A DNA stretch of 64,000 bases from Candidatus Poriferihabitaceae bacterium. Lineage in GTDB: Bacteria > Pseudomonadota > Gammaproteobacteria > Arenicellales > Poriferihabitantaceae. This document shows positions 3,101 to 36,628 of this stretch, piece after piece; position 1 is the stretch's first letter; each line of letters opens with the position of its first letter. Both the position numbers and the translations under genes were made by a program. The stretch spans positions 580,236 through 644,235 of the forward strand of contig CBDBQH010000001.1 of NCBI GenBank assembly GCA_965208975.1, written 5' to 3'. The notes beneath the pieces are model-generated. The model searched no databases. It was not told where the DNA came from and was given only the letters and a program-made list of their open reading frames with translations.

Positions 3101-5088
3101 CGTTGTCTTTGTTTGTAGTATTTGCAAACCAGATGCAGGAACGTTCCTTCCTTAAATAACCCTTCGTCACTGTAATCTCTGTCTGTTTTTAACTCATTCT
3201 GCAGGCAGGATTTTCCAATCGCTTCATCCAGATTGTTTTTAGCCGATTGCCTTTCTTGCTCTGTCGATTGCTCTTGTCGCCACTTCAGTTGGCGCCACTT
3301 TTTAGCATGGCTGTAAATTTCATTCAGGTTGAGCGGGTCATCCGCTTTTACCCGGTCGAAAATGAATTGCAGGGTCCGGGCATCCAATGCTTCAAGGATA
3401 CGTCTTTCCTGATTACTTGCTTTTAACTCTTGTCGGCTCTTTTTCTTTCCTCTTTTCGTTACCTCTTTAGCTTCCTTATCTGAGAAATATGGGTTTCTTT
3501 TACCGCTTTTCAGGTCTTTGAGTTGGTCCTCAAAATCATCCAGATACCCCGCAACGGCTTCCAGGCTTTTAAGTTCTGCCAGCCAGTTTTGCCAATCAGG
3601 GTATTGCTTATCCAGAAATTTCGGATTCAGTATCAGACTTTGGCACTTGGGTGGACGGCGATTGTTATTGTCTTGATAGGGTGGGATGGTGAGGAGAGGG
3701 TCAGTCTCCAGCCAGAAATCAACGACTGTATTCGGATTCGCTTTTTTATGACTGTTCCAGTCTTGCTTTAGTTTTTCGTAATCGCCTGGGTTGCCGGTAG
3801 CTTTGTCCTTGTCTTTGTCCAGGTTTACCCTCCATTCCCGCAAAATCCAGCGATTAAAAATTTTGTTTAGATGTGTTTCGCACCAGTAATCGGACTTTTG
3901 GTGTTTTTTGTCGTTGAAGTATTTACGTAATGGCTTGAGTTCCAGATTGCTGAGATGGCTGATTAAACGGCTGAGTTTTTCTTCACCCATCCTCTGGTGA
4001 TGACCTGATTTCAGTTTCGTACAAAATCGGTCTATATAGTCATCCCCAATCCGTGTTCCGTCTTTCTTTCTGCCTTTTGTCCTTTCGTTCCGCAAAACTT
4101 TCCTTACCTCGTCAAAGTACTTGCGACGATGGCGGCCACCTGATTCCAGTTCATTGAGCGTTTTATGTAAGGCATAAGCCAGATGTTGGAGGTGGAGCCT
4201 GGTATCAATGTTTGTTGAATCTAATAGTTTCTCCCCGTTTTTTTCAAAATCAAAATTCCCGATTGGATTAAAGAGCCATTCTTTTTGTTCTTGTGGAAGC
4301 GTCTCTTTAATTTCTACAGCAACTTGCGCAGGATTATTATTAATAAATGACAGGATATTAAATGTTCCACCTTTGTTGTATGTGGCGGTTATTTCCTCAT
4401 TTTGATCGTTGTGGAATGTATATTCCTCGGACTCCATTCTGTTTTTGAGATATGGTAATCCGTAGAATATTTTTTCAAAAATATCTTTAGGAGTTTCACC
4501 TAGCTTTACAGAGTTGATACCTTCTTTGATGATGTCTTCGTCAGTTTCCTTCTCCAGGCAAACTTTGCGAATTTTTTCGTAGTAAGCCGTCAATAAGATT
4601 GCGTCAAAGTATTTCCGTACCTTTCCTTCGCCCTCGTTAGCCCATTCAGTCAAGGCGTTGGCAAAGTCGCGTTCACCATTTTTGTTCTCATTTTTCAGTT
4701 CGTCTGGCAATAGCTCATACGCTTCTCTCGGAAACTGACTCAATGCTTCTTTATCGTATTCTTCCGTTAAAAAGGTGAACCCCCGACGATTGAGCAGGAA
4801 ACTGGTGGTCTGCTGGACATCTTGATCCCACTCCAGCTTGAAATGTTTTTCCCATATCAGTTTGAACAGACGTTTGACCATCTGGCGACGGTCATAGCCT
4901 CGTCGCTGGTGGCGCGCCGCGGTTCTATTCTCCATTAACAGCGTATATTTGTCTTTCTCAAGAATATAAACCTTGCCTTCCTTCTCAATATTCTCAATCG
5001 AACTGCCTTCTTCATAGTGAGCAAAATAAACTCCGGTGTTTTTGGCACCAAGATCAATGGAGATGGGACTAATGGATTTGTTTGACAT
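130..5088 (-). CDS. cas9: Cas9 endonuclease, type II-B (Francisella novicida Cas9-like), 1652 aa
   Basis: N-terminal RuvC-I motif ISIDLGAKNTGV (D12) is followed by an Arg-rich bridge helix RTAARHQRRGYDRRQMVKRLFKLIW. RuvC-II is IPIITESNRFEFEP (E920). HNH is DKDHIIPRS..GTLNDEANLI..EGNKNVKK (H983, N1008; the His codon is nt 2140-2142). RuvC-III is YSHLIDAQLAF (H1177, D1180). Long collinear blocks match FnCas9 as I remember it: NLELKPLRKYFNDK, TIPPYQDNNNRRPPKCQSLILNPKFLD, GTFLHLVCKYYKQRQRA, LLTYCNHKPRQK, NTCAVCS, AKSQRLPAIPTRLIDGAV, VNGTQRYFAE. The gene is visibly more AT-rich than the neighbouring housekeeping genes. Confidence 0.93.
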   Translation of the reverse strand: MSNKSISPISIDLGAKNTGVYFAHYEEGSSIENIEKEGKVYILEKDKYTLLMENRTAARHQRRGYDRRQMVKRLFKLIWEKHFKLEWDQDVQQTTSFLLNRRGFTFLTEEYDKEALSQFPREAYELLPDELKNENKNGERDFANALTEWANEGEGKVRKYFDAILLTAYYEKIRKVCLEKETDEDIIKEGINSVKLGETPKDIFEKIFYGLPYLKNRMESEEYTFHNDQNEEITATYNKGGTFNILSFINNNPAQVAVEIKETLPQEQKEWLFNPIGNFDFEKNGEKLLDSTNIDTRLHLQHLAYALHKTLNELESGGRHRRKYFDEVRKVLRNERTKGRKKDGTRIGDDYIDRFCTKLKSGHHQRMGEEKLSRLISHLSNLELKPLRKYFNDKKHQKSDYWCETHLNKIFNRWILREWRVNLDKDKDKATGNPGDYEKLKQDWNSHKKANPNTVVDFWLETDPLLTIPPYQDNNNRRPPKCQSLILNPKFLDKQYPDWQNWLAELKSLEAVAGYLDDFEDQLKDLKSGKRNPYFSDKEAKEVTKRGKKKSRQELKASNQERRILEALDARTLQFIFDRVKADDPLNLNEIYSHAKKWRQLKWRQEQSTEQERQSAKNNLDEAIGKSCLQNELKTDRDYSDEGLFKEGTFLHLVCKYYKQRQRAKAGRLFIQPEYRYVKNQGYVNTGRFDDKNCLLTYCNHKPRQKKYQSFYDIAGVLQVSPAHLQQIIGGQSDADLDDRLAKWLKRFHGLPTLCRESAKAQKEHRGALKTRMDAAEKNAPLGKLNKSLEKISEEVGKALFGEVEEEVLTQKIGKFRSPFAFAQINNIVFKDRSGNSNTCAVCSTDNAYRMQSVEISKGNGPIEHSAKSQRLPAIPTRLIDGAVMRMARIVGGAIAEDKWKKIKCELEAGMRVRIPIITESNRFEFEPSLKEIKGKPVKGNESKSRDEGQRQLADDKDNRIRGSFGICPYTGKSLGKDGDKDHIIPRSSGWGTLNDEANLIWASEEGNKNVKKDNEFSLADLNSAYKQKQFPGKSDDEIKNWIIDQIGNEEGESFKFGRYRSFINLTECQQIAFRHALFLIGHPLREKVINAIDHRTRTLVNGTQRYFAEIIANNLHKKARTIGRQSLLSFDFFGVEAQPNTRGDGIKDLRTAHEKAGLLDEKYSKKEGQKQLPYSHLIDAQLAFCMMADAHKNEGSLKLAAHEHRLWPLDKGTGEIFQKTIFGSVEIKPGEMKPLEELKRRKAYTVETHHRKMIAKHKKPSINYQIHRDSIFKENFFPILEFKDGTFKKGFNHSNCVDFNTNQFLLLLENNFIHQTSRNECYKTWNILKRNCQQFLIEIGAVGASEQEIKIAKIIHKLTYQTIKKPLEKVLTQKNKPPKTVGEALERWTKCIKEEDYKKDGVLLPAYYEWLKFHQCLLEVHKEKDFHDFAKNCSLFKNNQSENSHNKVRKVFSLPVKSTIGSIRLQRESWDKTSIVQVVAEESLGKYGYAGKDRPHTIISKNSVPIKHYTGIPDSWDLEPLEWKEVPVEEIKLPDNLTKVEIKDAKVMNKDAGRCVVSLTASCIENLSLPQDKPFWQGKVICHENEDELENAQDQDKNDNYHCLSSQYKWFDTPLALPNDRREVSIETNSDGKVITFTVSKSRRVKDWLVG

Positions 5089-5584: not shown

Positions 5585-6968
5585 CTAAAGTCTCCCCATT
5601 TTTTATTTGATAGTTATATAAGCGTTTGAAAAGGTTGTAGAAAGGTTGGATATTGGATGGAATCAGAGTTCTGCTTCTGGTACAATGGTTTTGTCGTAAA
5701 CTACTGATACCAAAAGAGAACTCTGATGACTGATGATAGCCGGGAACGCAACAAATGGAAAGTGCGAATTGTGGATTGTGTGAATCAATCGAGTGAAGTG
5801 ATCAGTCAGCCGGTAGCCAAGCTGATGGCGGAGGTTGTGACGGGTATATTAGGCAGTGGGAGCTTGCAGTTATCGAGGATTGGGCGGAGTTTGAAAGAGC
5901 CGACCCGTCTGCATCACACGGTCAAGAGATTATCCCGGATGTTGGGGAAACATGGAGAGATTGCATGGGAAGCGGAAGAACGTTTACTGGAGCAGATGTC
6001 GGGGCGGGTGACGGACGAGATGGTGGTCGCGATAGACCCGGGAGATTTGAACCGGGAAGGCAGTAGCGCCAGTGAAGGGTTATGCCGGGTACGGGATGGA
6101 GACCGAGGAGATATTGTGAATGGTTATCCGTTATTGAGTGTGGTGGCTCGCTGTTTGGATAGTGGCCAGACATTGCCGTTGCTGACTCGATTGTTGTCGA
6201 GTGTTCGAGGTTCTTACAAGAGCGAGAATCGGGATATTGTGAATGTCATGGAGCGGGTACAGGGGAGTTTGGAGAGTCGTCCTTTATGGGTGATAGACCG
6301 GGGCGGAGACCGGGGTGTTTTATGGGATTACTGGTTACGGGGAGATTGGAGGATTGTGGTACGGGCGGCCAATCTTCGTCACTGGTTATGGAGAGGGTCA
6401 AAGAGAACGGCGCAACAGATTGCGTGTCAGTTGCCGTTGAAGCATCGGGGTTCGTTGAAGAAGGAGCGTAAGGAATCGGTACGTTTTGGCATGACCACGG
6501 TATTTTTGAAAGATCATCCGGATACGCCGTTGTCGATGGTTGTGGTGCGTCATGGCAAACAACAACCGATGGTACTGGTCAGTACCGAGCGGATACGGGG
6601 TCGTTTGCAAGGGGAGCGATTGATTCAATCGTATATGGGTCGTTGGGCCTGTAAGGTTCAAGCCCGGAAACTGGCGACCTTGCAGAATCTGGTTGCACTG
6701 TCGACGTTAGCCTGGGGATTGCTGGCCTGTCACCAGAATCAGGGGCAGAAACTCATCTACAAGGCGAAACGGCAAAAGAGTCACAAACCCCTGGTTTTCC
6801 CGTTCTATACGCTGTTATCGGGCTGGCAGGCGTTATTTGCGGATGCCAAAACCCTTTTCTATGACTGGTGGAGAAAACCCAAACGCCCTCCGCCCAGACA
6901 GGCTGACCTGTTCATCAATAACGGGCGGCTTGTGCCCAGCCTCTCATGAAAAAATGGGGAGACCCTAG
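5585..6968 (+). mobile_element. IS4/IS701-like insertion sequence, 1384 bp, single transposase ORF
   Basis: Terminal inverted repeats are CTAAAGTCTCCCCATTTTTT (5585-5604) and AAAAAATGGGGAGACCCTAG (6949-6968), matching 18/20. Flanking direct repeats are CTATACTAT (5576-5584) and CTATACTGT (6969-6977), consistent with a 9-bp target duplication (8/9). Confidence 0.75.
5726..6949 (+). CDS. DDE transposase (IS4/IS701-like)
   Basis: The 407-aa ORF lies between the IS inverted repeats. Acidic motifs VAIDPGD and WVIDRGGD fit DDE residues D1 and D2. The YMGRWAC motif is present, but the Glu expected just after it (Y-x2-R-x3-E-x6-K signature) is not seen; the sequence reads KVQARK. Activity is therefore uncertain. 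Confidence 0.8.
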   Translation: MTDDSRERNKWKVRIVDCVNQSSEVISQPVAKLMAEVVTGILGSGSLQLSRIGRSLKEPTRLHHTVKRLSRMLGKHGEIAWEAEERLLEQMSGRVTDEMVVAIDPGDLNREGSSASEGLCRVRDGDRGDIVNGYPLLSVVARCLDSGQTLPLLTRLLSSVRGSYKSENRDIVNVMERVQGSLESRPLWVIDRGGDRGVLWDYWLRGDWRIVVRAANLRHWLWRGSKRTAQQIACQLPLKHRGSLKKERKESVRFGMTTVFLKDHPDTPLSMVVVRHGKQQPMVLVSTERIRGRLQGERLIQSYMGRWACKVQARKLATLQNLVALSTLAWGLLACHQNQGQKLIYKAKRQKSHKPLVFPFYTLLSGWQALFADAKTLFYDWWRKPKRPPPRQADLFINNGRLVPSLS

Positions 6969-21101: not shown

Positions 21102-21668
21102 ATGCCCCAAGCCCAAGCCATCACATTTGATACTCACCGCTTTGTCAAGCATTTGACGGGAAGTGGATTCACAGAGAAACAGGCCGAGACCCTGGCCGAG
21201 GAACAGGTCGCCCTGCTCAACACCAATCTTGCGACCAAAGCCGATATCGAAGCCCTGCGACTTGCAACGAAATCCGATATCGAGACCCTGCGACAGGAAA
21301 CCAAAGCCGGTATTGAGTCTTTGCGCCAGGAAACCAAAGCCGATATCGAAGCGGTCAAGGCGGATATCGAAGCCCTGCGACTTGCAACGAAATCCGATAT
21401 CGAGACCCTGCGACAGGAAACCAAAGCCGGTATTGAGTCTTTGCGCCAGGAAACCAAAGCGGATATTGCGCGACTCGAAGCCGGTATCGAAACCCTGCGA
21501 TTGGAAACCCGGACGGATATTGAAGCGGTCAAAGCCGGTATCGAAGCCCTGCGATTGGAAACCCGGGCGGATATTGCGTCCCTCAAGACTGATTTGTTAA
21601 AATGGATGTTTGGAGCGCTGATTGCCCAGGGGGGATTTCTCATCGCTCTGGCCAGCTTCCTGGATTGA
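21102..21668 (+). CDS. DUF1640-like coiled-coil protein with a C-terminal membrane anchor and an expanded 11-residue repeat array
   Basis: The N-terminus ITFDTHRFVKHLTGSGFTEKQAETLAEE and the C-terminus DLLKWMFGALIAQGGFLIALASFL fit DUF1640. The centre is about 12 copies of an xDIExLRxETK hendecad. Confidence 0.75.
   Translation: MPQAQAITFDTHRFVKHLTGSGFTEKQAETLAEEQVALLNTNLATKADIEALRLATKSDIETLRQETKAGIESLRQETKADIEAVKADIEALRLATKSDIETLRQETKAGIESLRQETKADIARLEAGIETLRLETRTDIEAVKAGIEALRLETRADIASLKTDLLKWMFGALIAQGGFLIALASFLD
21241..21480 (+). repeat. Tandem 120-bp duplication inside the DUF1640 gene
   Basis: 21243-21340 is identical to 21363-21460 (98 bp, read directly from the sequence). The copies diverge only at the unit ends. 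Confidence 0.9.
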
Positions 21669-21699: not shown

Positions 21700-21896
21700 C
21701 AAATCACTCCCCCCTTGAGGGGGAGTCCAATCCGCTACACGGATTGGGTGGGGGGTATTCCCGCAAAGGGGGAATCCAACAGAAACAACACGAACCTGAT
21801 CACGAATATGATAAAAGCAAATCAGATATGCCCACCTACGATTCGTAGAGCCTGCCCCCGGCTTGATCGGGGGGGCGGGTCACTGTGCCCGCCCGC
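21700..21896. repeat. Cluster of REP-type palindromic elements
   Basis: Hairpins ACTCCCCC-cttga-GGGGGAGT, CCAATCCG-ctaca-CGGATTGG, ATTCCCgcaaaggGGGAAT, and GGGCGGGtcactgtgCCCGCCC. The same modules recur at 22290-22510 and, inverted, at 28401-28980. Confidence 0.7.
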
Positions 21897-21933: not shown

Positions 21934-21965
21934 TTGACAGCTGAATGGCAAGATGCTGCTACAAT
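21934..21965 (+). promoter_or_regulatory. Promoter-like element TTGACA ... TGcTACAAT (extended -10) abutting the CCAAG tract
   Basis: TTGACA is at 21934-21939 and TGC-TACAAT at 21957-21965. The spacer is 20 nt, which is too long for a canonical promoter, so the call rests mainly on the extended -10. The CCAAG tract begins 6 nt downstream. Confidence 0.3.
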
Positions 21966-21970
21966 GATTG

Positions 21971-22163
21971 CCAAGCCAAGCCAAGCCAAGCCAAGCCAAG
22001 CCAAGCCAAGCCAAGCCAAGCCAAGCCAAGCCAAGCCAAGCCAAGCCAAGCCAAGCCAAGCCAAGCCAAGCCAAGCCAAGCCAAGCCAAGCCAAGCCAAG
22101 CCAAGCCAAGCCAAGCCAAGCCAAGCCAAGCCAAGCCAAGCCAAGCCAAGCCAAGCCAAGCCA
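21971..22163 (+). repeat. Perfect pentanucleotide microsatellite (CCAAG)38
   Basis: Counted directly: 190 nt of uninterrupted CCAAG units (21971-22160) plus a partial CCA. Confidence 0.98.
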
Positions 22164-22199
22164 GCCCGGTCCGGGCTTCGGGCATGATGGCTTCCGCAT

Positions 22200-22510
22200 G
22201 GCGGCTCCGTTCCCGCCCGGCAAATCCCCGACTATCTGATTCTTCCCGCCCGGCAACTTCTGGTCCGCCTGATTCTCCATCCGTCATTCCCGCGAAGGCG
22301 GGAATCCACAACCCTGCGGGACGGCACAGAGACCGTCCCCTACGATCCAGCCATATCATTCCCCCCTTGAGGGGGAATCACATCGCGCGAAGCGGGTGTG
22401 ATGGGGGGACATTCCCGCCAAAGGCGGGAATCCACAACCGGCGACCGACTGATTCTCCCGACCTGCCGCCGTCAACCGGCGTCATCAGATGGATTCCCGC
22501 TTTCGCGGGA
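22200..22510. repeat. REP mosaic between the microsatellite and the adhesin start
   Basis: TTCCCGCCCGGCAA x2, ATTCCCgcgaaggcGGGAAT (22287-22306), GGGACGGcacagagaCCGTCCCCTACG, the CCCCCCTTGAGGGGG / TCACATCGCGCGAAGCGGGTGTGA module (22361-22408), ATTCCCgccaaaggcGGGAAT, and ATTCCCgctttcgcGGGAAT (22493-22512). Confidence 0.7.
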
Positions 22511-25500
22511 ATGACGAGGTTTTGGGTCCGTTTCGCGGGCACCCGGTTTCTTCTTCCCCACCTCCTCTCCACCCTGCTCCTGCTGCCGCTCCTGGCCGGC
22601 TTCACCGCCGAAGCCTCTGCCCAGATCACTGCCTTTCCTCAAAAGGTCACCGGCGCCGTGACCGAAGGCGAGGATGCACAGTTTACAATACATATCTCCG
22701 ATCCGGCTCCGACCGGGGGGCTGGTAGTCAACCTGAGTGTGACTGAATTACTGGCTGACCACGTCGCGTCGACAGAGGAAGGATCCAAGATGATCACCAT
22801 CCCGGAAGGTGAAACCAGCGCCATCTACACCGTCCCCACAGTGAACGACGAGATCGATGAGAGTCCCAGCAACGTCCGGCTTCAAGTAGTGAACGGTTCG
22901 GGCTATACCCCGTCGTCCGGTATCCCCGCTGATGACATCATCGTCGCCGACAACGACCCCGCCACCCTGTCAATCTCCGCCCCCGCCGATGCCGTCGAGG
23001 GCAACAGTTCGTATACCGACCGCAACTTCACGGTCACCCTGTCCGAAACCCGCAGCGCATCTGTCGGCTTCCAGGTCTGTTTTAACGATGGCGCCAACGG
23101 CACCGCCACGCGGGGTTCCAGCGGAGACTACCGATTGGTGATCGGCGGCAACGCGGACAATAGCACGTGCCGGGCCACTTCTCTTTCCTCCGGACAAACC
23201 AGCGAAAACATCACCATCCGCGTAGTGGGCGACACCGACATCGAAGCCGATGAAACCGTCATCGCCACCCTGGAACTGGTCGGCAGCCCGACGGGTGTGG
23301 TCCTCGGCACAGCCACCGCCACCCACACCATCGAAACCGATGACACCCACGAAGTCACTATAGATGTCACCAACAGTTCAAACAACAAGATTTCGGGCGC
23401 AACCGAAGGGGACAGCGGTCATAATGACTATACCGTCAACCTGCGCATAGATCCCGTATACACTTCCCAATCCATACAGGTTAAATTCTGTCTGGGGGGT
23501 ACGGCCGTCCGCGCCACCGATTATGACTTGTTGACCCCGTCCGGGACGGCCATCATCCATGGCTTCGACGCCCAGAACTGCCTGGTTTCACCCGCTCAGC
23601 TCACGATGAACAGCGCCCTCGCCGAGTACACGCTGCGCGTCCAGGGCGATGTGACCATTGAACCGAACGAGACCATCACCTTTCAGGCCTCCGCCCAGTC
23701 CGGCGTCACCCCGGGAGACGTGTCCTTTGGACCCGCCCACACCTTCACCATCCTGACCAATGACACCGTCCCGCTGAGCCTGACTTCAGTGGGCGCGAAC
23801 CCCTTTGTAGAAGAAACAGGCAATCTGGCCAGCCGCGCCGAGGTCCGTCTGGGGACGGCGCGCAACAGTGATACCCACTACCGCATCTGCTTTGTCTCCT
23901 CCCTGGCGCCAACAGCTTCGGTGCCGAGCTATGACTGGACCCAGAATACCAATAATGTTCTGGACGCAACGCGCTGTCACGATGGCGTCATCGCCAGTGG
24001 GCAGACCTCCCACTCAGTCAACAATGCTTACATTCGCACCAACAACAAGGGATCAGGCCGAGACAGTTCAATTTTCAATGCCGACAATCCCGATGAGACC
24101 ATTACCATCACCCTGTCGCAAGACCCCGACAATCCGCTGCCTTCCGATGTATCCCTGTCCAGTACCGGCAATCCCATCCGCATGGTCAGCCAGGACGATG
24201 ATCTGACCCGGGTACGACTCGACCGCCAGGGTTCCGGCAATCTGACCGAAGGCGGTTCCGCCAAAGCCGAGTTCAGGCTGACCCTGGACAACCGGCTCGA
24301 CCACCGGGCGCTGGTAGCCGGTGAACGGGTCGATGTGCCACTGGTCATCTCCGGTACGGATATTACCGCCGGCGACTACACCTTAACGACCAAGAGTGGG
24401 ACCGATCTGAATACCGGCGTATCGATCACCGGCGCCAATACCCTGACCCCGGTCGTGATATTACAAGGCGCTGGCGCCCGGATAGCCACGCTGGAACTGA
24501 CGCCGACCGATGATACAGACATCGAAAGTACCGAAACCCTGCGCGTGGAACTGGGACCGGACGGTACGGGCGCCAATGGCTTCGGTCATTCGAGCCGCGG
24601 CACCACGGTGCGCGGCGGCGCGGCGCGCAGCGACCGCACACTCACCCATCACTTTGAGGTAGATATTGCTGATAATGACCAGGCATCGGTGATTACCATT
24701 GCCCGCGCTTCCGCCGCCTCGCTGACCGAGGGCAACCAGGCCAGCTTCACGCTCAGCGCCGACCCGCCCCCGGCTTCCTCCCTGACCGTCCGTCTGAACA
24801 TTACGGACGCCGGCAACGCCGACTTTCTGGCTTCAACGGTTCAGGGCGCCCGTACCGTATCCATTCCGACTTCCGGTTCCACTCCTTATCCACTCTCGAC
24901 GGTGGCTGACGCCATTGATGAACCCGGCGGCCCGGTCACGATCACGATTGCCGCGGACACCGCCAATCCGGCCAGATACACCATCAGCGATCCCGCTCCT
25001 TTCGCACAAGTCACCGTCCATGACAACGACGCCACTACGGTCACCCTGACCACGCCGGATACCGACGCGACCGAAGGCAGCAGTACCGCCACGGCGCAGA
25101 TCGTCCTGACCCTGGGACGCGCCTTGCGCGCCGGAGAGATTCTGGCGATTCCGTTACAGTTCAGTGGCGGCGTATTGAACACCGATTTCGGTCTGTATCT
25201 TCCGACTTCAAACGCCATCTCCCTGACCGGCCATACCGTCACCTTCACCGGCAGCGCCGGCGGTTCAGCGACCGTAGCCACTCTCTCTGTACTTGCCACA
25301 GAAGACGCGGACGCAGACCCTGATTCCATCACCGTCTCCATCCCCGCCACATCGACCGGCAATGCCGCGAAACTGACCGCCACCGGAATGGGGGTCAATA
25401 CCAACACCGCTCCCGCCGCCACCGGCTCGGTCACCGCCAACCACGGCACAATCACCGTCACCGACAACGACACCCGCGGACTGACCCTCACCTCCCCGGC

Positions 25501-28396
25501 CGTCACCGAAGGCGGCAGTGGCACGTATACCGTCGTCCTGGATACCCAACCCGGCGCATCGGTCACCGTCACCATTACCGCCAACAGTACCGAAGTCACC
25601 ATCGACGGCACAGACGCCGATACGACCTTTACCAATAGCGAAGACCTGATCTTCACCACTACCAACTGGAATCAGCCACAGACCGTCACCATCCGCGCGG
25701 CCGAAGATGACGATACCGAGGATGACCGCGTCACCCTGACGCATGCTGTATCCGGTGGAGGATACGGTGCAACAGAAAATGAAACCCCGGAAATCACCAT
25801 TACCGACAACGACAGTCCGGGACTGGTCCTGCCGGCGACGCTAACCGTGAATGAAGGCGCCACCGGCAACTACACCGTTCGCCTGTCTACCCAACCCGGT
25901 GGCGCGGTGACCGTGACCATTGGCGGTCACGCCAGTACCGACCTGACCATTGACACCGATTCCGGTACGAACGGGAATCAGGATACCCTGACCTTCCGCC
26001 CGACCGGAGCGAATCTGTGGAGTACCGAACAGACCGTCACCGTCACCGCGGCCTCCGATAACGACCGCGCCAATGACGCCGTGACCCTGGCGCATACCGC
26101 CATCGGCGGAGGATACAATATCACCGGCAATGTCGCGGTCACCATCACCGACACCACCCCGGCTCCGCCTCCCCCTCCGCCTCCGCCATCCACCGAACCG
26201 GGGACTTTGCCGGAACCTACCCCGACTACACCGGGAGAAACCCCCACAGAGCCGCAACCACCCGAACCGCAACCCGTGATTCCGCTTCTTTCCATTCAGG
26301 CGCAATCCGGCGCCCTGACCGAAGGCTCCGTAGCGACTTTCACGATCACCGCCGAACCGGCGCCGGTTGAACCGATTACCGTTCCACTCACCATTGCCGC
26401 ACAGGGCGACTTCACCACCCCGGAGTCCATCGGAGCGAAGCCCCGCATCATTGACCGCGCCATCACTTCCCTGATGATTCCCACCCTCCAGGACTTCATC
26501 GACGAAGCAGATGGCTCGGTCACCATCACCCTGCAAGCGGCGGACGGCTATAGCCTGTCCCCGAACCCTTTGGCGACGATAGAGATTCACGACGATGATA
26601 CCGCCGGCATTGCATTGTCCACCCAGGGACTACGCATTGACCAGATCGGAGAAACCGGACAATATACCGTGCAACTGACCAGCGAGCCGCAGGCTCCGGT
26701 GCAGGTGACGGTTCTCCCCTCCACTAATGGCTCTTCCTCAACGCCTGGCGCTTCCCCGACTCTCGCCAGCGCCTCTGTCTCCAGCGCTTCTGTCGCGCAG
26801 GCCGCCACGATGGACGTGGTGAGCGCCACGCCCTCTACGCTGACCTTTGTGCCGGACCACTGGAATATCCCGCAAACCGTCACCCTGACCGCGCAGCGGG
26901 AAGGCCGCATGAGCCTGAGGCACCGCGTCACATCACAAGACCCGAACTATCATACGCTCCCGGCCATGGAAGCCACCGCCGGACCACTGGCGGTTCTCGT
27001 CGGCGAAGACCTGACCGCCGTAGCCTTGCCCTGGCAGACACGATTCGCTCGCACTTCAGCCGGACACGTATTAGACAGCATCTCCCAACGCATTCAATCC
27101 ACTCCCACCCCCGGACTGTCCGCCCGACTGGCTGGCTATCGCATGGATACCACCCCGCAAGAAATGCAATCCTGGACACAGCCCCCCAACTCCATCGCCA
27201 GACCGCACAGCCGCGCCATCACCATGTCTGAACTACTGTCTGATTCGTCGATGTCGTGGAGCGCAACAACCGATGGTTCCATCGCTTCCCTTTGGGCGCA
27301 GGGCGCCTTCTCGGAGTTTAATGGCCAGAGTGGAGAAACCACCCTGGATGGAGAAGTCCTCACCACCCTGATTGGAGTCGATCAAACCCATACCCACGGA
27401 CAACGCGGACTGGTTCTGTCGTATAGTCAGGCAGAAGGACAATACCAGACGAAAAACAAAGGAGAGATTGAATCAGAACAGACCCTGTTGACTCCGTGGA
27501 TGTCCCGGCAAGTGAATGACCGCATGACGCTGTGGGGCGCGTTGGGTTATGGTACGGGAGACCTCACCCTCATCAGAAGCGAAAGGCAAGACCTCACTAC
27601 GGATACCCATACCGCCTTTGTGGCCCTGGGCAGTGACGCCATCCTCCGGGAAGAAACCCATCGTACCTTATCGATCGTCACCGATGCGCTGTGGTTGAGA
27701 ACCCGTACCGAGGCGGTCACAGACGGACTGGAACTGAACCATGCCACGGCGCATGCTTCAAGGATGCGGGTGGGAATCAAAGGCAGTGGGCGTATCCCCG
27801 CAATCCCCGGAATCCCCCGATTCACTGCGGCACAGGCGCTGAAGATGAATTGGGAATCCGCATTGCGTCATGATGGCGGAGACGCTGAAAGTGGATTCGG
27901 CGTGGAAGTCGGGGGCGGAGTCCAATGGACCGATTCCCGGCGCGGACTGAACCTTCAAATCAATGGCCGAAGTCTGATTACCCATCATGATTCAGATATA
28001 AAGGATCGGGGACTTTCCCTGTCCATGGGATTTAATCCGTCTCCGGCTGAGCAAGGATTTACCTTCACCCTGAAACAGGATTGGGGTACGGTGTCTTCGG
28101 GCCGGGAGCGATTATTGACCGCGGAATCCCTGGAACCGGCGCAATCGAATACCGCCACCGCGCAACGGTTGTCCGCAGAAGCGGGGTATGGTTTTACCAT
28201 CGGCGATGGACGCTATATCGCCCGTCCACATCTGGGGGTGGGTCTGTACGCCAAAGAGCGAGAAACCACACTCGGCTGGCGGCTGCAATCCACTATCGGC
28301 AGAAGTGAGCGGACATTGGGGTTGAAACTCATCCGGCATGAGAATGACAACCAATCCGAACACCGCATGAAGGTGGAAGCGGGGGTGCGGTGGTAA
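22511..28396 (+). CDS. Giant autotransporter adhesin: signal peptide, many Calx-beta-like repeats, poly-Pro linker, C-terminal beta-barrel
   Basis: ATG 22511 gives MTRFWVRFAGTRFLLPHLLSTLLLLPLLAGFTAEASA-Q, a clear signal peptide. Repeated modules are bounded by (I/V)xDND/DDD and carry an EG...F(T/S)(V/L)xLS pattern. The linker PAPPPPPPPPSTEPGTLPEPTPTTPGETPTEPQPPEPQP lies at about 26150-26280. The C-terminal ~450 aa have alternating beta-strand character and end in ...VEAGVRW, the aromatic terminus typical of autotransporter barrels. The ORF-track start 21968 is rejected. Confidence 0.85.
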   Translation: MTRFWVRFAGTRFLLPHLLSTLLLLPLLAGFTAEASAQITAFPQKVTGAVTEGEDAQFTIHISDPAPTGGLVVNLSVTELLADHVASTEEGSKMITIPEGETSAIYTVPTVNDEIDESPSNVRLQVVNGSGYTPSSGIPADDIIVADNDPATLSISAPADAVEGNSSYTDRNFTVTLSETRSASVGFQVCFNDGANGTATRGSSGDYRLVIGGNADNSTCRATSLSSGQTSENITIRVVGDTDIEADETVIATLELVGSPTGVVLGTATATHTIETDDTHEVTIDVTNSSNNKISGATEGDSGHNDYTVNLRIDPVYTSQSIQVKFCLGGTAVRATDYDLLTPSGTAIIHGFDAQNCLVSPAQLTMNSALAEYTLRVQGDVTIEPNETITFQASAQSGVTPGDVSFGPAHTFTILTNDTVPLSLTSVGANPFVEETGNLASRAEVRLGTARNSDTHYRICFVSSLAPTASVPSYDWTQNTNNVLDATRCHDGVIASGQTSHSVNNAYIRTNNKGSGRDSSIFNADNPDETITITLSQDPDNPLPSDVSLSSTGNPIRMVSQDDDLTRVRLDRQGSGNLTEGGSAKAEFRLTLDNRLDHRALVAGERVDVPLVISGTDITAGDYTLTTKSGTDLNTGVSITGANTLTPVVILQGAGARIATLELTPTDDTDIESTETLRVELGPDGTGANGFGHSSRGTTVRGGAARSDRTLTHHFEVDIADNDQASVITIARASAASLTEGNQASFTLSADPPPASSLTVRLNITDAGNADFLASTVQGARTVSIPTSGSTPYPLSTVADAIDEPGGPVTITIAADTANPARYTISDPAPFAQVTVHDNDATTVTLTTPDTDATEGSSTATAQIVLTLGRALRAGEILAIPLQFSGGVLNTDFGLYLPTSNAISLTGHTVTFTGSAGGSATVATLSVLATEDADADPDSITVSIPATSTGNAAKLTATGMGVNTNTAPAATGSVTANHGTITVTDNDTRGLTLTSPAVTEGGSGTYTVVLDTQPGASVTVTITANSTEVTIDGTDADTTFTNSEDLIFTTTNWNQPQTVTIRAAEDDDTEDDRVTLTHAVSGGGYGATENETPEITITDNDSPGLVLPATLTVNEGATGNYTVRLSTQPGGAVTVTIGGHASTDLTIDTDSGTNGNQDTLTFRPTGANLWSTEQTVTVTAASDNDRANDAVTLAHTAIGGGYNITGNVAVTITDTTPAPPPPPPPPSTEPGTLPEPTPTTPGETPTEPQPPEPQPVIPLLSIQAQSGALTEGSVATFTITAEPAPVEPITVPLTIAAQGDFTTPESIGAKPRIIDRAITSLMIPTLQDFIDEADGSVTITLQAADGYSLSPNPLATIEIHDDDTAGIALSTQGLRIDQIGETGQYTVQLTSEPQAPVQVTVLPSTNGSSSTPGASPTLASASVSSASVAQAATMDVVSATPSTLTFVPDHWNIPQTVTLTAQREGRMSLRHRVTSQDPNYHTLPAMEATAGPLAVLVGEDLTAVALPWQTRFARTSAGHVLDSISQRIQSTPTPGLSARLAGYRMDTTPQEMQSWTQPPNSIARPHSRAITMSELLSDSSMSWSATTDGSIASLWAQGAFSEFNGQSGETTLDGEVLTTLIGVDQTHTHGQRGLVLSYSQAEGQYQTKNKGEIESEQTLLTPWMSRQVNDRMTLWGALGYGTGDLTLIRSERQDLTTDTHTAFVALGSDAILREETHRTLSIVTDALWLRTRTEAVTDGLELNHATAHASRMRVGIKGSGRIPAIPGIPRFTAAQALKMNWESALRHDGGDAESGFGVEVGGGVQWTDSRRGLNLQINGRSLITHHDSDIKDRGLSLSMGFNPSPAEQGFTFTLKQDWGTVSSGRERLLTAESLEPAQSNTATAQRLSAEAGYGFTIGDGRYIARPHLGVGLYAKERETTLGWRLQSTIGRSERTLGLKLIRHENDNQSEHRMKVEAGVRW

Positions 28397-28400
28397 GGGG

Positions 28401-28980
28401 GTGACAGGATTCCCGACCGTCATCGTAGGGGAGGGTCTTGTACCCTCCCGCAACCGTCATCGACCGTATACGGAAATAATGCGGGCACCCACAAGGGCAC
28501 CCCCCCGATCAAGCCGGGGGCAGGCTCTACGCATCGGTAATTACAGATTCCATGAGGTCGTGGATTCCCGTTTTCACGGGAATGACGGGTGGGGCGTTTG
28601 ATTACGGTTGTGCCCCCCATCACATCCGCTTGCGCGGAATGTGATTCCCCCTCAAGGGGGGAATGATTTGCTTGCCCCTGATTTTCTTGCGCCTGCCGTC
28701 ATCGTAGGGGAGGGTCTTGTACCCTCCCGCAACCGTCATCGACTGTATACGGAAATAATGCGGGCACCCACAAGGGGCGCCCCCCCGATCAAGCCGGGGG
28801 CAGGCTCTACGCATCGGTAATACAGATTCCATAAGGTCGTGGATTCCCGTTTTCACGGGAATGACGGGTGGGGCGGTGGTGACAGGATTCCCGCGAAGCG
28901 GGAATACCCCCCATCACATCCGCTTGCGCGGAATGTGATTCCCCGGTCTGCGGGGGGAATGATGGATATCCCGACCGTCA
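28401..28980. repeat. Two tandem copies of a ~280-bp composite REP unit
   Basis: 28417-28596 and 28696-28875 are near-identical 180-bp blocks (a few mismatches or indels by eye). CCCCCCATCACATCCGCTTGCGCGGAATGTGATTCCCC occurs at 28613-28650 and 28906-28943. GTGACAGGATTCCCG occurs at 28401 and 28879. Confidence 0.85.
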
Positions 28981-28981
28981 T

Positions 28982-30985
28982 CTATAACTGAGCGCGGTCA
29001 ATGTGGCAGAATATGGTGTGGTCGTTGACGGTTTGCGCTGGCGGGGGGACTTCATCACAGATTTTCCCGACCTTGCGCTGACATCTGAGCTGGAACGGAC
29101 ACCCCGTGTCGGGCGGGGCGGTTTCGACAATATCACTGATCTCGACATGGGATTGCGCGTCGGGGTCCGGTTCGAGCACGGCTTCCATCAGCGCTTCGGT
29201 ATAAGGATGAAAAGCGGGTTTGTAAACCGCTTCGACCGCACCGATTTCACAAATCCGACCCTGATACAGTACCAGCGCTCGATCAGCGACCGCGCGCACC
29301 GTGGCCAGGTCATGCGAGACGAACAGATAGGCGACCCCGTTTTCCTGTTGCAGCTTCGACAATAGTTCAAGCACTGCGGCCTGAACCGAAACATCCAGCG
29401 CCGAAGTGACTTCGTCACATAACGCCAGTATCGGTTGCGCGGCAAAGGCGCGGGCAATACCCACCCGTTGCTTCTCGCCCCCGGATAACTGGTCCGGAGT
29501 GCGCCCCAGATAGTCTCTGGTCAGGCGGACACTTTCCAATAGTTCGGCTGCTTGGTCAATGGCTGCGGCCTGATCCATGTCAAAGTAGAGTTGCAGCGGG
29601 GCAGACAGGATTTCGGCAATGGTTTTCCTGGGGTTGAGCGATGAGTCCGGATTCTGGAAAATCATCTGGATGTCTTTCTTGCACTGTAATGATCGGGCGT
29701 CTGTCACCCCGTCCAGAGATTCCCCGCCTTGTATCTGCATGGTTCCGTTGCAGGGCGGAATCAGACCCGCGATTGCCCGCAGTATGGTTGATTTTCCGCT
29801 GCCGGATTCCCCGACCACGGCAATGGTTTCTCCTTTGTGAAGGGTGAGGTTCACATTGTCCACGGTCAGCGTCCGGCGCCGGTCTCCACGTTTCATGAGA
29901 CGGCTGAACAGCCGCGGACGGTCGTAGGATATCGCCAGATTGCGAAGTTCGAGCAGGGGGCGGTTCTTGTCGTCTGCGGCTATCGCTTCGGCTTTCCCCT
30001 GAAAATCACTTTGCGGGAAATTGCCGGAATCGAAGTGACAACGCACCATTCGACCGTCTGCCGTTTCGGTCAATGGCGGCGATTCGCTGAGGCAAATCTC
30101 TTGTTGATGCGGGCATCTGGGCGCAAAGGCGCACGCGCTTCGGGTCGCCGACAGCTTCGGCGGATAACCGGGCAGGGCATCCGGAATCCGGCCCGTGTTG
30201 ATTTTCGGGATGGAAGACAACAATCCACGGCTATAGGGGTGGGACGGTTTTTTGAGAATCTCGAGACTGGTTCCCAGTTCCATCAGTTCTCCGGCATACA
30301 GTACCGCGATCCGGTCGCTTATCCGGGCAACCGCTCCCAGGTCATGGCTGACAAACACCATGGCCACGCCAGATGTACGGCAAAGCTCCCTGAGCAGTTC
30401 GAGAATATGCACCTGGGTGGTGACATCCAGGCCGGTGGTCGGCTCATCCAGCAGTAGTACGCGAGGCTGACCAGCCAGCGCCATGGCAATGGCACAGCGT
30501 TGTTGCTGACCACCGGACAACTCATGCGGATGACGCTCCCGGATCAGTTCGGGGGAGGGAAGTCGAACTTTGGCCAGAAGAGACGTTGCCGCCGCTTTGT
30601 GGTCCGCGGCGGCCAGGTCGGTATGAAGCATCAGGGATTCTTCAATCTGTCGGCCAATCGTCATGGTGGGAGTCAGGGATTGCCCGGCGTTTTGCGGAAC
30701 CAGACAGATTTCTCCACCCCTCAATGCCTCAAGTTGATTGCGGGTACTATCGAACATCGGGATGTCGTCAAAAATAGCGGAGCCGCTCAGCAATTCCAGT
30801 CCTGGTTCCAGATATCCCATCATGGACAGCGCCACCGTGCTTTTCCCGGAACCGGACTCTCCGACCAGCCCCAGGACTTCGTTTGGCCGGACATCCAGTG
30901 TAATTCCTCTTAGAACCGGAATCGGAGCCGCGTCTTTGGCTTTGATCCCGACAGACAGGTTATCCAGGTAAATCAGTGGATTCAT
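28982..30985 (-). CDS. ABC transporter ATP-binding protein, fused double ATPase (Dpp/Opp/Nik type)
   Basis: 667 aa with two Walker A motifs (GESGSGKST x2), two signature motifs ([16 protein letters not shown]) and two Walker B motifs ([16 protein letters not shown]). Confidence 0.9.
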
Positions 30986-36436: not shown

Positions 36437-36555
36437 TCGATTCCAATTCCTCCATCCGCTTTGACGGGTGAGCGCTTATGCTATATTCCGGCAGATGCTA
36501 TAGCATGAAATGGTTATCAGGCAAGTATTATTTTGCAGTATTATTTTGCATACCG

Positions 36556-36628
36556 ATTATTTCGGATGGCGTGTTATTTCGGATGGCGTGTTATTTCGGA
36601 TGGCGTGTTCGGACACGTGTCGGATGGC
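36556..36628 (+). repeat. Tandem 17-bp repeat TTATTTCGGATGGCGTG x3 plus a fourth partial core (TCGGATGGCG)
   Basis: Exact units lie at 36556-36572, 36573-36589 and 36590-36606, with the core again at 36619-36628. The location is the divergent Rieske/xdhA intergenic region. Confidence 0.9.

What the first reader, a model, noticed from the sequence alone, without database searches (positions are those of the whole stretch)
21934..22515. Perfect (CCAAG)38 microsatellite between a promoter-like element and a giant adhesin gene: candidate contingency locus
Seen: 190 bp of uninterrupted CCAAG starts 6 nt after a TGcTACAAT extended -10. The unit length is not a multiple of 3. All three forward frames encode the same (PSQAK)n peptide. 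Only one frame, the adhesin frame, stays open. It runs from the first codon after a TGA (21965-21967), through the tract and the 350-bp REP region, into ATG 22511. The other two frames stop at 22187 and 22239. By arithmetic, 37 or 40 units would put ATG 21945 in the adhesin frame, and 36 or 39 units would do the same for ATG 21964. Established: non-triplet repeats in promoters, leaders or 5' coding regions of surface-protein genes drive slipped-strand phase variation in Neisseria, Haemophilus, Moraxella and others. Inference: adhesin expression is likely switched or tuned by repeat number. The mechanism could be leader length or structure, or upstream ORFs reading into and masking the signal-peptide start.
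Basis: partly seen in the sequence, partly recalled or inferred. Interest (0 to 1): 0.7.

Follow-up and report, generated by a model that had tools for sequence, protein, structure and literature searches.

The report
Repeat-tract switch before giant surface protein
A perfect run of 38 copies of CCAAG sits directly after a promoter and before a 2,000-residue secreted surface-protein gene; related bacteria have the same layout with other repeat units and different copy numbers, so it is very probably a mutation-prone expression dial of a known kind, here in an uncultured marine bacterium.

Summary
(CCAAG)38 lies at 21971-22160 with no mismatch and is the only simple repeat in the 64 kb. It starts 6 nt after TGcTACAAT, and TTGACA lies 20 nt upstream of that box. 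The downstream gene (22511-28396) is a type Va autotransporter with Calx-beta-like repeats. The contingency-locus reading is supported by comparison, not by data on this locus. Homologous giant-protein genes show the same layout. L125 and L126 have the orthologous upstream gene, TTGACA-N20-TATAAT and a perfect octamer repeat, 19 units against 10, with flanks about 96% identical. L100 has at least 26 CCAAG units before a true homolog. L122 and L123 have poly(C) of 25-26 just before the ribosome site. In other phyla, CCAAG tracts precede methyltransferase and giant surface-protein genes. The tract lies downstream of the -10 box, so it is most likely transcribed as the 5' end of the mRNA and tunes expression by its length. 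A reading-frame switch from ATG 21945 or 21964 is unlikely. An in-frame ATG at 22184, 20 nt after the tract, matches the start position in relatives. The annotated ATG 22511 lies inside an inserted palindromic element. The class is known (UspA1, UspA2, HMW1), so this is a new member. The effect on expression is untested.

The parts
21102..21668 (+). CCDC90-like (DUF1640) gene, a conserved upstream neighbour of the repeat and giant-protein gene. It contains its own 33/120-bp tandem repeats.
   Evidence: Pfam PF07798, E = 2.6e-19. Orthologous to the gene upstream of the repeat in L125 (BLASTP 8e-40) and L126. Internal tandem repeats.
21700..21880 (.). Palindromic REP-like elements between the upstream gene and the promoter-like element.
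   Evidence: Inverted repeats I3, I6, I7 and I11; pattern match at 21758.
21934..21939 (+). TTGACA, a perfect -35-like hexamer 20 nt upstream of the -10-like box.
   Evidence: Sequence. L125 and L126 have the same 20-nt spacing. A perfect TTGACA lies within 50 nt upstream of 8 of 232 CCAAG tract sides in other genomes, against 0.56% of control positions, p = 6e-5.
21957..21965 (+). TGcTACAAT, an extended -10-like box. The predicted transcription start falls in the first repeat unit, at about 21972.
   Evidence: Sequence. Homologous loci have TATAAT immediately before their repeat (L125, L126). L136 has TGtTATAAT before its repeat. The transcription start is inferred, not mapped.
21971..22160 (+). 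(CCAAG)38, a perfect pentanucleotide repeat (periodic over 21970-22163). It is the hypermutable element.
   Evidence: It is the only simple repeat in the window. As RNA it is nearly unstructured, -0.12 kcal/mol per nt.
22184..22189 (+). ATGATG in the autotransporter frame, 20 nt after the tract. This is the candidate ancestral start codon.
   Evidence: The first in-frame ATG lies 3 nt after the repeat in L125 and L126 and 22 nt after it in L114. In L126 it is the only canonical start before the signal-peptide core.
22196..22239 (+). A conserved GCATGG motif, read Ala-Trp in the main frame. A 13-codon proline-rich upstream ORF (MAAPFPPGKSPTI*) starts at its ATG (22198) and ends at TGA 22237-22239.
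   Evidence: GCATGG follows the repeat in the window, L125, L126, L100 and L114. A 12-13-codon ORF ending in TGA is present in the window, L125, L126 and L100. Its role is unexplained.
22282..22308 (+). A REP copy that can pair over 26 bp with the REP copy holding ATG 22511.
   Evidence: RNA folds; duplex -54 kcal/mol.
22358..22431 (+). Two further REP palindromes (22358-22378 and 22411-22431) in the leader.
22490..22516 (+). REP copy TGGATTCCCGCTTTCGCGGGAATGACG, which contains the annotated start codon ATG 22511-22513.
   Evidence: The same 27-mer recurs at 28561 and 28840, 93% identical (family D12). The ATG pairs with 22285-22287 in the predicted fold.
22511..28396 (+). Gene for a 1961-aa type Va autotransporter with a Calx-beta-like repeat passenger, as annotated. 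The frame is open back to 21968.
   Evidence: An identical 1961-aa protein is in the database (P0001). PF03797 scores 30.6 bits against a cut-off of 26 on the C-terminal 498 aa. Homologs carry PF03160. Three mosaic relatives at about 93% identity.
28397..28982 (.). Downstream REP cluster with a 279-bp duplication. Together with the upstream REPs it brackets the gene.

Best explanation
The tract is a slippage-prone simple repeat placed at the start of the transcript of a giant autotransporter gene.

Proposed steps:
1. Transcription starts from the conserved TTGACA-N20-TGcTACAAT element, at about 21972, inside the first repeat unit.
2. The 190-nt repeat therefore forms the 5' end of the mRNA. 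It ends 20 nt before the first in-frame ATG (22184).
3. Gain or loss of units by replication slippage changes the leader length but not the reading frame.
4. Changing leader length raises or lowers production of the surface protein in a graded, heritable and reversible way across the population.

My preferred molecular route is an effect on the RNA. A long, C-rich, U-free, unstructured and untranslated 5' leader would change the loading of ribosomes or of termination factor Rho, and the lifetime of the mRNA. Downstream, the REP hairpins sequester the annotated ATG 22511.

What is shown: the tract, the conserved layout, and copy-number polymorphism at homologous loci. What is inferred: the transcription start, the dependence of expression on length, and the Rho or ribosome route.
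For: 1. The tract is perfect, 38 units long and the only simple repeat in 64 kb. Such perfection implies ongoing slippage.
2. The same module occurs at homologous loci. L125 and L126 have the orthologous CCDC90-like gene, then TTGACA-N20-TATAAT, then a perfect (AGCCGCCG)n, then ATG 3 nt later and a 2455 or 2504-aa Calx-beta protein.
3. L125 has 19 units and L126 has 10. The flanks are about 96% identical (alignment A1). This is direct length polymorphism at the equivalent position.
4. L100 carries at least 26 CCAAG units 127 nt before a true homolog of the window protein (BLASTP 6e-46; Calx-beta 6.8e-23). L114 has TTGACA, then (CCAAG)15, then ATG 22 nt later for a secreted protein of at least 925 aa.
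5. L122 and L123 are homologous giant proteins, and L122's is an autotransporter by Pfam. They have poly(C)26 and poly(C)25 directly before the Shine-Dalgarno sequence and ATG.
6. In unrelated bacteria, CCAAG tracts sit 5' of or inside DNA methyltransferase genes (L044, L062, L093). They also sit 5' of 1500-2100-aa surface proteins in four loci, three of which are Lachnospiraceae MAGs (L054, L091, L115, L118). These are the two classic classes of phase-variable genes.
7. A perfect -35 hexamer is enriched 22-30 nt before tract starts (8 of 232 sides against 0.56% of controls, p = 6e-5). This places such tracts at transcription starts.
8. The protein family is multi-copy and mosaic at its N-terminal tip (P0002, P0121, P0122), as expected for variable surface antigens.
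9. Precedents: UspA1 G(n) and UspA2 AGAT(n) upstream repeats tune mRNA level (PMC7302503, PMC4679880). The HMW1 ATCTTTC(n) repeat is transcribed in the 5' UTR (PMC12721329).
Against: - There is no read-level or between-strain copy-number data for this locus. The three closest relatives (P0002, P0121, P0122) could not be retrieved as DNA.
- The transcription start is only predicted. The 20-nt spacer is poor for sigma-70, and the tool's own scan finds no promoter.
- The tract is 350 nt from the annotated start codon.
- The repeat units at homologous loci share no RNA property. (AGCCGCCG)19 is predicted to be fairly structured at -0.44 kcal/mol per nt, and (ATCGCGGC)n contains U. A single RNA-level mechanism such as Rho loading is therefore not supported across the family.
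- Most CCDC90-like genes in metagenomes have no repeat after them.
- L124, another homolog, has no repeat upstream of its gene.
Confidence: 0.58

Rival explanations
1. The tract is a neutral microsatellite. It expanded by slippage in a junk-rich intergenic region full of REP elements, and its length has no effect on the neighbouring gene.
For: There are no expression data. The tract is 350 nt from the annotated ATG, and the region is crowded with inserted REP palindromes. Most CCDC90-like loci in metagenomes lack a repeat.
Against: The repeat occupies the same position, directly after the same promoter-like element, in homologous loci that use unrelated repeat units. The same unit sits before a 27%-identical homolog in a MAG assigned to another class. 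It is the only simple repeat in 64 kb. Elsewhere such tracts are associated with classic contingency gene classes and with -35 hexamers.
Confidence: 0.2
2. The tract is an on/off switch acting through the reading frame. Translation starts upstream of or at the tract (ATG 21945, ATG 21964 or TTG 21968), reads through (PSQAK)n, and joins the autotransporter frame only at certain unit numbers.
For: The unit is not a multiple of 3. The adhesin frame is open from TTG 21968 through the tract into the gene. 37 or 40 units would bring ATG 21945 into frame. L100 has no canonical in-frame start between its tract and the signal-peptide core. A CCAAG tract does lie inside the 5' coding region of a methyltransferase gene in L093.
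Against: ATG 21945 lies in the promoter spacer, ATG 21964 overlaps the -10 box, and TTG 21968 is 2 nt after the box. None has a Shine-Dalgarno sequence, and all lie upstream of the predicted transcription start. The product would carry 109-181 extra residues ahead of its signal peptide. In L125, L126 and L114 an in-frame ATG follows the repeat by 3-22 nt. The missing start in L100 is explained by a deletion relative to L114. L125 and L126 differ by 72 nt, which is frame-neutral.
Confidence: 0.07
3. The tract acts at the DNA level. It works as a variable spacer or as an array of binding sites between the promoter and a downstream control element. A regulator or nucleoid protein would then read the repeat number and set the level of transcription.
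For: The conserved but poor 20-nt -35/-10 spacing suggests that the promoter needs help from a factor. In Neisseria nadA, a repeat near the promoter changes regulator binding (my own knowledge).
Against: The repeat units at homologous loci are unrelated in sequence: CCAAG, AGCCGCCG, ATCGCGGC and poly(C). A sequence-specific binder is therefore unlikely. No conserved operator-like palindrome was seen next to the tract, and the promoter spacers are not palindromic.
Confidence: 0.1
4. The tract, or its length, is an assembly artefact.
For: Long perfect repeats are hard to assemble. Several short-read contigs in the comparison set begin or end inside CCAAG tracts (L003, L025, L044, L054, L100). 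The stated 38 units may be a consensus over a mixed population.
Against: The tract is embedded in unique sequence on both sides within an 821-kb contig. Equivalent repeats appear in independent assemblies from other samples.
Confidence: 0.03

Closest known systems
Moraxella catarrhalis uspA2 AGAT(n) and uspA1 G(n) repeats (PMC7302503; PMC4679880, which cites Attia & Hansen 2006 and Lafontaine 2001)
   Same: A simple repeat lies between the promoter and the start codon of an autotransporter-type surface protein. Its length gives graded changes in mRNA level, not on/off frameshifting. The proteins also show mosaic antigenic variation.
   Different: The units and lengths differ: 6-23 AGAT units or 6-12 G (ranges reported across those papers), against 38 CCAAG here. 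UspA1 and UspA2 are trimeric autotransporters of a human pathogen. This gene is a classical type Va autotransporter with a Calx-beta-like passenger in an uncultured marine gammaproteobacterium. Here the repeat appears to begin at the transcription start itself. An effect on expression is shown there but not here.
Haemophilus influenzae hmw1A/hmw2A (ATCTTTC)n (PMC12721329)
   Same: The repeat is upstream of a large adhesin gene and is transcribed as part of the 5' UTR. Expression scales with repeat number. The leader is highly structured.
   Different: In hmw the repeats themselves form one arm of a long hairpin that RNase III cuts. Here the tract is predicted to be unstructured, and the long helix is formed by two REP copies downstream. 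HMW is a two-partner-secretion adhesin, not an autotransporter.
Repeats inside the coding region of phase-variable genes (Neisseria opa CTCTT; type III mod genes, PMC5909438; H. influenzae lav GCAA, PMC9022572)
   Same: A non-triplet repeat at the 5' end of a surface-protein or methyltransferase gene, with slippage as the mutational engine. A CCAAG tract is used in exactly this way in the methyltransferase gene of L093.
   Different: In the window no credible start codon lies upstream of the tract. An in-frame stop abuts the tract, so frameshift switching is not the likely mode.
TAACTGA heptamer repeats upstream of start codons in marine Beggiatoaceae (PMC4679880)
   Same: Intergenic direct repeats in the forward orientation, just upstream of start codons that lack Shine-Dalgarno sequences, in environmental Gammaproteobacteria. 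A post-transcriptional role has been proposed.
   Different: Those arrays have 2-6 copies, are spread over about 170 genes of all functions, and share one unit, which suggests a binding site. Here there is a single very long array at one gene family, and the unit differs between homologous loci.

Membership tests
Simple-repeat contingency locus (phase-variable gene) | A perfect simple repeat long enough for frequent slippage | tested here: met
   38 perfect units over 190 bp. This is at or above the tract lengths tabulated for known phase-variable loci, for example ModM CAAC with 18-35 units (PMC7302503).
Simple-repeat contingency locus (phase-variable gene) | The repeat lies in the promoter, leader or 5' coding part of a gene, typically for a surface protein or a restriction-modification enzyme | tested here: met
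   The tract lies between a promoter-like element and an autotransporter gene. No minus-strand gene is nearby.
Simple-repeat contingency locus (phase-variable gene) | Copy number varies between strains or within a population at this locus | not testable with these tools
   DNA of the closest relatives (P0002, P0121, P0122) could not be retrieved. No reads are available.
Simple-repeat contingency locus (phase-variable gene) | Copy number varies at homologous loci | tested here: met
   L125 has 19 units and L126 has 10 units of AGCCGCCG, with flanks about 96% identical. (CCAAG)n before a homologous or similar giant secreted-protein gene: 38 units (window), at least 26 (L100) and 15 (L114). L090 has 14 units behind a similar promoter, but its contig ends before any gene.
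Simple-repeat contingency locus (phase-variable gene) | Expression changes with repeat number | not testable with these tools
   This needs reporter fusions or transcript and protein measurements.
5' UTR repeat 'rheostat' (uspA2 / hmw type) | The repeat lies between the transcription start and the start codon | tested here: inconclusive
   The tract starts 6 nt after an extended -10-like box that is conserved in position at homologous loci. The transcription start is not mapped, and the -35/-10 spacer is 20 nt.
5' UTR repeat 'rheostat' (uspA2 / hmw type) | hmw subtype: the repeats form one arm of a long RNA hairpin cut by RNase III | tested here: not met
   The tract is unpaired in the centroid fold and scores -0.12 kcal/mol per nt when folded alone. 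The 26-bp helix is formed by two REP copies, not by the repeat.
Frameshift on/off switch (repeat inside the ORF) | A start codon with a ribosome-binding site upstream of the repeat, and a product that works when in frame | tested here: not met
   TGA 21965-21967 abuts the tract in the gene's frame. ATG 21945, ATG 21964 and TTG 21968 lie within or 2 nt after the promoter-like element and have no Shine-Dalgarno sequence. The signal peptide would be buried 109-181 residues in.
Promoter-spacer switch (repeat between -35 and -10) | The repeat lies between the two promoter hexamers | tested here: not met
   The spacer 21940-21959 holds no repeat. The tract is downstream of the -10-like box.
Type Va (classical) autotransporter | C-terminal autotransporter beta-barrel domain | tested here: met
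   PF03797, E = 3.7e-7, 30.6 bits against a cut-off of 26, on the C-terminal 498 residues. The whole protein gave no Pfam hit at 1e-3.
Type Va (classical) autotransporter | N-terminal signal peptide | not tested
   MTRFWVRFAGTRF-LLPHLLSTLLLLPLLAGF-TAEASA|Q looks like a Sec signal peptide by eye. No predictor was available.
Adhesin | Demonstrated binding function, or clear homology to characterised adhesins | tested here: inconclusive
   The passenger gives only weak Calx-beta and LapA-like matches. Homologs carry Calx-beta. The C-terminal 498 residues find no solved-structure relative by sequence. A surface location is likely; adhesion is assumed.

The most novel reading that the evidence does not exclude
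A group of marine, probably sponge-associated, bacteria spanning several classes may share a portable control module. It consists of an atypical promoter (TTGACA-N20-TAnAAT), then a long simple repeat that starts at the first transcribed base and forms almost the whole 5' UTR, then the start codon of a giant Calx-beta surface protein. The repeat unit is free to change (CCAAG, AGCCGCCG, ATCGCGGC, poly-C). What matters is a hypermutable leader length, read out through Rho or ribosome loading. A conserved 12-13-codon proline-rich upstream ORF may also take part. This would be a general 'repeat as 5' UTR' rheostat used by symbionts to vary their surface.
Probability: 0.3. Interest if true: 0.65.

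Novelty: new member of a known kind. Interest (0 to 1): 0.5.

Why it matters
Repeat-driven phase variation has been worked out almost entirely in human pathogens and commensals. This locus and its relatives suggest that uncultured marine Gammaproteobacteria use the same strategy for their largest surface proteins. Their nearest named relative is the sponge symbiont Candidatus Spongiihabitans. If so, symbiont populations inside a host would be mixtures of surface variants, which bears on how hosts and phages select among them.

It also matters for genome work. Such tracts break short-read assemblies, and a single 'consensus' copy number is not a fixed property of the strain.

The comparison set gives a natural experiment: the same promoter and gene family with four unrelated repeat units. 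That can separate the effect of leader length from the effect of leader sequence.

Tried and rejected
1. Exact look-ups of window proteins, and of P0001, P0002, P0121 and P0122, to fetch related DNA all failed. The closest relatives' tract lengths therefore remain unknown.
A longer probe would have been a better choice. It still gave the cross-phylum context.
3. A metagenome scan with the adhesin protein found nothing.
4. I checked whether gene callers had called spurious ORFs across the tract, which might have revealed other alleles. None of ten candidates is in the protein collection.
5. L121, the syntenic region of a relative whose acs protein is 93% identical, has a different 960-aa autotransporter at this place. 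It has no repeat and no REPs, so it is not informative.
6. I considered whether the open frame through the REP region is significant. It is not on its own (p about 0.06).
7. I considered a shared 'C-rich, U-free, unstructured leader' rule for all repeat types. I rejected it as general because ATCGCGGC contains U and (AGCCGCCG)19 is predicted to be structured.
8. A 'TTGACA-n-AAATG' motif is shared by several CCAAG promoters but is absent from L125 and L126, so I left it as a possible chance match.
9. I looked for sigma-54, MerR-type or other readings of the 20-nt spacer by eye. No match or palindrome was found.
10. Protein-level similarity of the post-repeat peptide between the window and L125 is not significant (E = 14). 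Only the short GCATGG motif and the position of the ATG are conserved.
11. The main text of two published surveys of phase-variable methyltransferases does not mention CCAAG or its rotations.
Full report
**What is there.**
The window holds a perfect (CCAAG)38 at 21971-22160. Tandem Repeats Finder reports 21970-22163, period 5, 38.8 copies and 100% matches, and a script confirms the exact string. A three-unit probe matches only inside this tract and never in 100 shuffles. No other mono- to nonanucleotide repeat in the 64 kb passes modest thresholds.

Six nucleotides before the tract ends TGcTACAAT (21957-21965). A perfect TTGACA lies at 21934-21939, 20 nt upstream of the -10-like hexamer. Because of that spacing, the tool's 16-18-nt sigma-70 scan reports nothing.

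- The gene's frame is open from the codon after TGA 21965-21967 to the stop at 28394-28396.
- The other two frames stop at 22185-22187 and 22237-22239.
- ATG 21945 and ATG 21964 are in those two frames.

**The gene.**
The annotated product (22511-28396, 1961 aa) is identical to a database protein with the same start (P0001). Its C-terminal 498 residues pass the Pfam cut-off for the autotransporter beta-domain (PF03797, 30.6 bits against 26). The passenger gives only weak Calx-beta and LapA-like signals, but homologs carry Calx-beta. It is a type Va autotransporter. 'Adhesin' is a reasonable guess, not a result.

Three database proteins that cluster at 90% identity or more (the representative is 93% identical to the window protein) are mosaics. 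They differ mainly in the first 250 residues or so, and one has a different N-terminus. The family is therefore multi-copy or multi-allelic and variable at its tip.

**The surroundings.**
- Upstream are dus, a fatty-acid hydroxylase gene, acs and a CCDC90-like (DUF1640) gene at 21102-21668. Downstream is an opp/dpp-type ABC transporter operon on the other strand.
- The window also holds recA, alaS, gshA, xdhAB, restriction-modification genes and a type II-B cas9.
- By acs the organism is a gammaproteobacterium. The nearest named relative, at 82% identity, is the sponge symbiont Candidatus Spongiihabitans. A host-associated lifestyle is an inference.
- Seven palindromes of the form TTCCCSC-N-GSGGGAA occur in the window, and all flank this one gene.
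- The annotated ATG 22511 lies inside one such element. That 27-mer recurs twice downstream of the gene (family D12).
- In RNA folds the tract is unpaired. REP copies at 22282-22308 and 22490-22516 form a 26-bp helix of -54 kcal/mol that buries the ATG.

**Comparative evidence.**
This is the part that decides the matter.

1. *L125 and L126.* These are two contigs from one ENA sample. Each carries an orthologous CCDC90-like gene (BLASTP 8e-40), then GGGGTTGACA-N20-TATAAT, then immediately a perfect octamer repeat (AGCCGCCG)n. An ATG follows 3 nt later and opens a 2455 or 2504-aa Calx-beta protein. The -35/-10 spacer is 20 nt, as in the window. L125 has 19 units and L126 has 10. The flanks are about 96% identical. 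That is direct copy-number polymorphism at the equivalent position.
2. *L100.* This is a short-read MAG contig that begins inside the tract. It has at least 26 CCAAG units, and 127 nt further on an ORF of at least 1432 aa with a Calx-beta domain. That ORF aligns to the window protein through the beta-domain region (E = 6e-46).
3. *L114.* It has TTGACA, then (CCAAG)15, then an ATG 22 nt later for a secreted protein of at least 925 aa.
4. *L122 and L123.* These are more distant homologs in 2.5-Mb genomes, and L122's protein is an autotransporter by Pfam. They have poly(C)26 and poly(C)25 directly upstream of the Shine-Dalgarno sequence and ATG.
5. *L136.* This metagenome contig shares the window's REP family. 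It has TGtTATAAT followed at once by (ATCGCGGC)10.
6. *Exceptions.* One homolog (L124) has no repeat upstream of its gene. Most metagenomic CCDC90-like genes have none after them, although many of those short contigs end within a few hundred bases of the gene.

**CCAAG tracts in other bacteria.**
Among the longer tracts found:
- Some lie just upstream of N6-methyltransferase genes (L044, L062).
- One lies in frame inside the 5' end of a type III-like methyltransferase gene (L093).
- Four lie upstream of 1500-2100-aa surface proteins with LRR or Listeria-Bacteroides repeats (L054, L091, L115, L118); three of these loci are Lachnospiraceae MAGs.

These are the two classic classes of phase-variable genes. 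A perfect TTGACA lies within 50 nt upstream of 8 of 232 tract sides, against 0.56% of control positions (p = 6e-5). The tract starts 22-30 nt after that hexamer, which is about where transcription would start. Several of the loci are homologous to one another, so the count overstates independence.

**Where translation starts.**
In the window the first ATGs after the tract (22184 and 22187) are in the gene's frame. L125 and L126 have an in-frame ATG 3 nt after their repeat, and L114 has one 22 nt after. In L126 that ATG is the only canonical in-frame start before the hydrophobic core of the signal peptide.

A short GCATGG motif, read Ala-Trp in the main frame, follows the repeat in all five loci. 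In L114 it is plainly part of the N-terminal region of the signal peptide. L100 lacks the ATG because of a small deletion relative to L114.

I infer that the ancestral start codon sits just after the repeat, so the repeat is almost the whole 5' UTR. In the window's lineage, REP elements were inserted between that start and the signal-peptide core, and the frame stayed open. One REP supplied the ATG that annotators now use. Which start is used today is open.

A 12-13-codon proline-rich ORF runs from the ATG of GCATGG to a TGA in the window, L125, L126 and L100. I cannot explain it.

**How it most likely works.**
The tract lies downstream of the -10-like box and upstream of every credible start codon. 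Slippage therefore changes neither the promoter spacing nor the reading frame. It changes the length of the 5' leader.

The closest studied cases behave as graded dials:
- UspA1 G(n) and UspA2 AGAT(n) in Moraxella alter mRNA level (PMC7302503, PMC4679880).
- The HMW1 heptamer in Haemophilus is transcribed in the 5' UTR and acts through RNA structure and RNase III (PMC12721329).

I propose the same logic here. For this unit, the 190-nt leader is 40% C, 20% G and 0% U and is unstructured. It is a plausible loading site for Rho or a standby site for ribosomes. The REP helix over ATG 22511 adds a structural block. These last steps are inference. The repeat units at homologous loci do not share these RNA properties, so leader length may matter more than leader sequence.

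**Rivals.**
- *Frameshift switch from ATG 21945, ATG 21964 or TTG 21968.* This is unlikely. Those codons lie within, or 2 nt after, the promoter-like element and have no ribosome-binding site. The product would bury its signal peptide.
- *Neutral microsatellite.* This cannot be excluded without expression data. It fits poorly with the conserved position across loci that use different units, and with the same unit before a 27%-identical homolog.
- *Sequence-specific DNA-binding array.* This is unlikely because the units are unrelated.
- *Assembly artefact.* This is unlikely for the tract's existence, but the number 38 may be a population consensus.

**Verdict.**
The contingency-locus interpretation is supported in its core by comparison and corrected in its mechanism. 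This is a new member of a known kind, in an unusual setting and with an unusually long tract. The wider pattern deserves a proper survey: a portable module of promoter, repeat and giant-protein gene, with interchangeable repeat units, in marine bacteria that are probably host-associated.

Noticed in passing
window 130-5088 (- strand): A 1652-aa type II-B Cas9/Csx12 gene (TIGR03031, E = 1e-193) lies in a region of 40-44% G+C, against 52-62% elsewhere. An IS4-like transposase ORF follows at 5726-6949. The region was probably acquired horizontally. No CRISPR array is seen in the window.
   Followed up: no
window 21198-21586: The CCDC90-like gene contains 33-bp and 120-bp tandem repeats. These expand its coiled-coil region to 188 aa, against 112 aa in the L125 ortholog. 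This gene precedes the repeat and giant-protein gene in the window, L125 and L126, and precedes a giant ORF without a repeat in L147.
   Followed up: partly
window 21700-21880, 22282-22516, 28397-28982: All seven REP-type palindromes (ATTCCCGC-N4-GCGGGAAT and variants) in the 64 kb flank this one gene. The annotated start codon lies inside one copy. Two copies can form a 26-bp RNA helix over the start codon. A 279-bp block is duplicated downstream of the gene.
   Followed up: partly
window 22198-22239; L125 4018-4056; L126 4018-4056; L100 148-186: A conserved 12-13-codon proline-rich upstream ORF follows the repeat: MAAPFPPGKSPTI*, MAAPGPVAILPA*, MAAPGPVAVLPD* and MVPPPKSIRLPA*. It ends in TGA and lies in the +2 frame relative to the giant gene. 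It could be a stalling leader peptide or a by-product of conserved DNA.
   Followed up: partly
window 36524-36609: A perfect 17-bp x 3.1 tandem repeat (TTATTTCGGATGGCGTG) and a 13-bp x 2.1 repeat lie in the divergent intergenic region upstream of xdhA (36691). They may be regulator binding sites.
   Followed up: no
L122 3953-3978; L123 3963-3987: Poly(C)26 and poly(C)25 lie directly upstream of the Shine-Dalgarno sequence and ATG of homologous giant proteins. In L122 the end of the tract (CCUCC) is complementary to the ribosome-binding site (GGAGG) four bases away, which suggests that it could mask the site.
   Followed up: partly
L054, L091, L115 (also L003, L052): In these loci (mostly Lachnospiraceae MAGs; L003 is labelled Clostridiales) the (CCAAG)n tract lies between a near-consensus promoter (seen in L003, L052, L115) and a conserved leader ending in a terminator-like hairpin (AGCCG.TATCT.CAC ... 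GTG.AGATA.CGGCTTTTT; seen in L052, L054, L091, L115). In L054, L091 and L115 a 1500-2100-aa surface-protein gene follows. The leader looks like an attenuator or a small RNA.
   Followed up: no
L093 3727-3831; L044 4-123; L062 4562-4611: CCAAG tracts lie at DNA methyltransferase genes. One is in frame inside the 5' coding region (L093, 21 units) and two are 44-46 nt upstream (L044, L062). These are candidate phase-variable methyltransferases with a repeat unit that the main text of two published surveys does not mention.
   Followed up: partly
L136 241-327: TGtTATAAT is followed at once by (ATCGCGGC)10 in a sponge-type metagenome contig that shares the window's REP family. The next gene is convergent, so the target of this promoter and repeat is unclear. 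The contig ends are redundant, so misassembly is possible.
   Followed up: partly
proteins P0002, P0121, P0122: Three 1954-1962-aa proteins that cluster at 90% identity or more (the representative is 93% identical to the window protein) are each recorded on a contig of the same length, 2.10 Mb. They are mosaics that differ in blocks, mostly in the first 250 residues or so. This suggests gene conversion among paralogs. Their DNA could not be fetched.
   Followed up: partly
L049 5870-6034: In Mycetohabitans sp. B46 the (CCAAG)15 tract directly abuts a second long pentanucleotide repeat, (CCGTG)n, forming a compound microsatellite.
   Followed up: no
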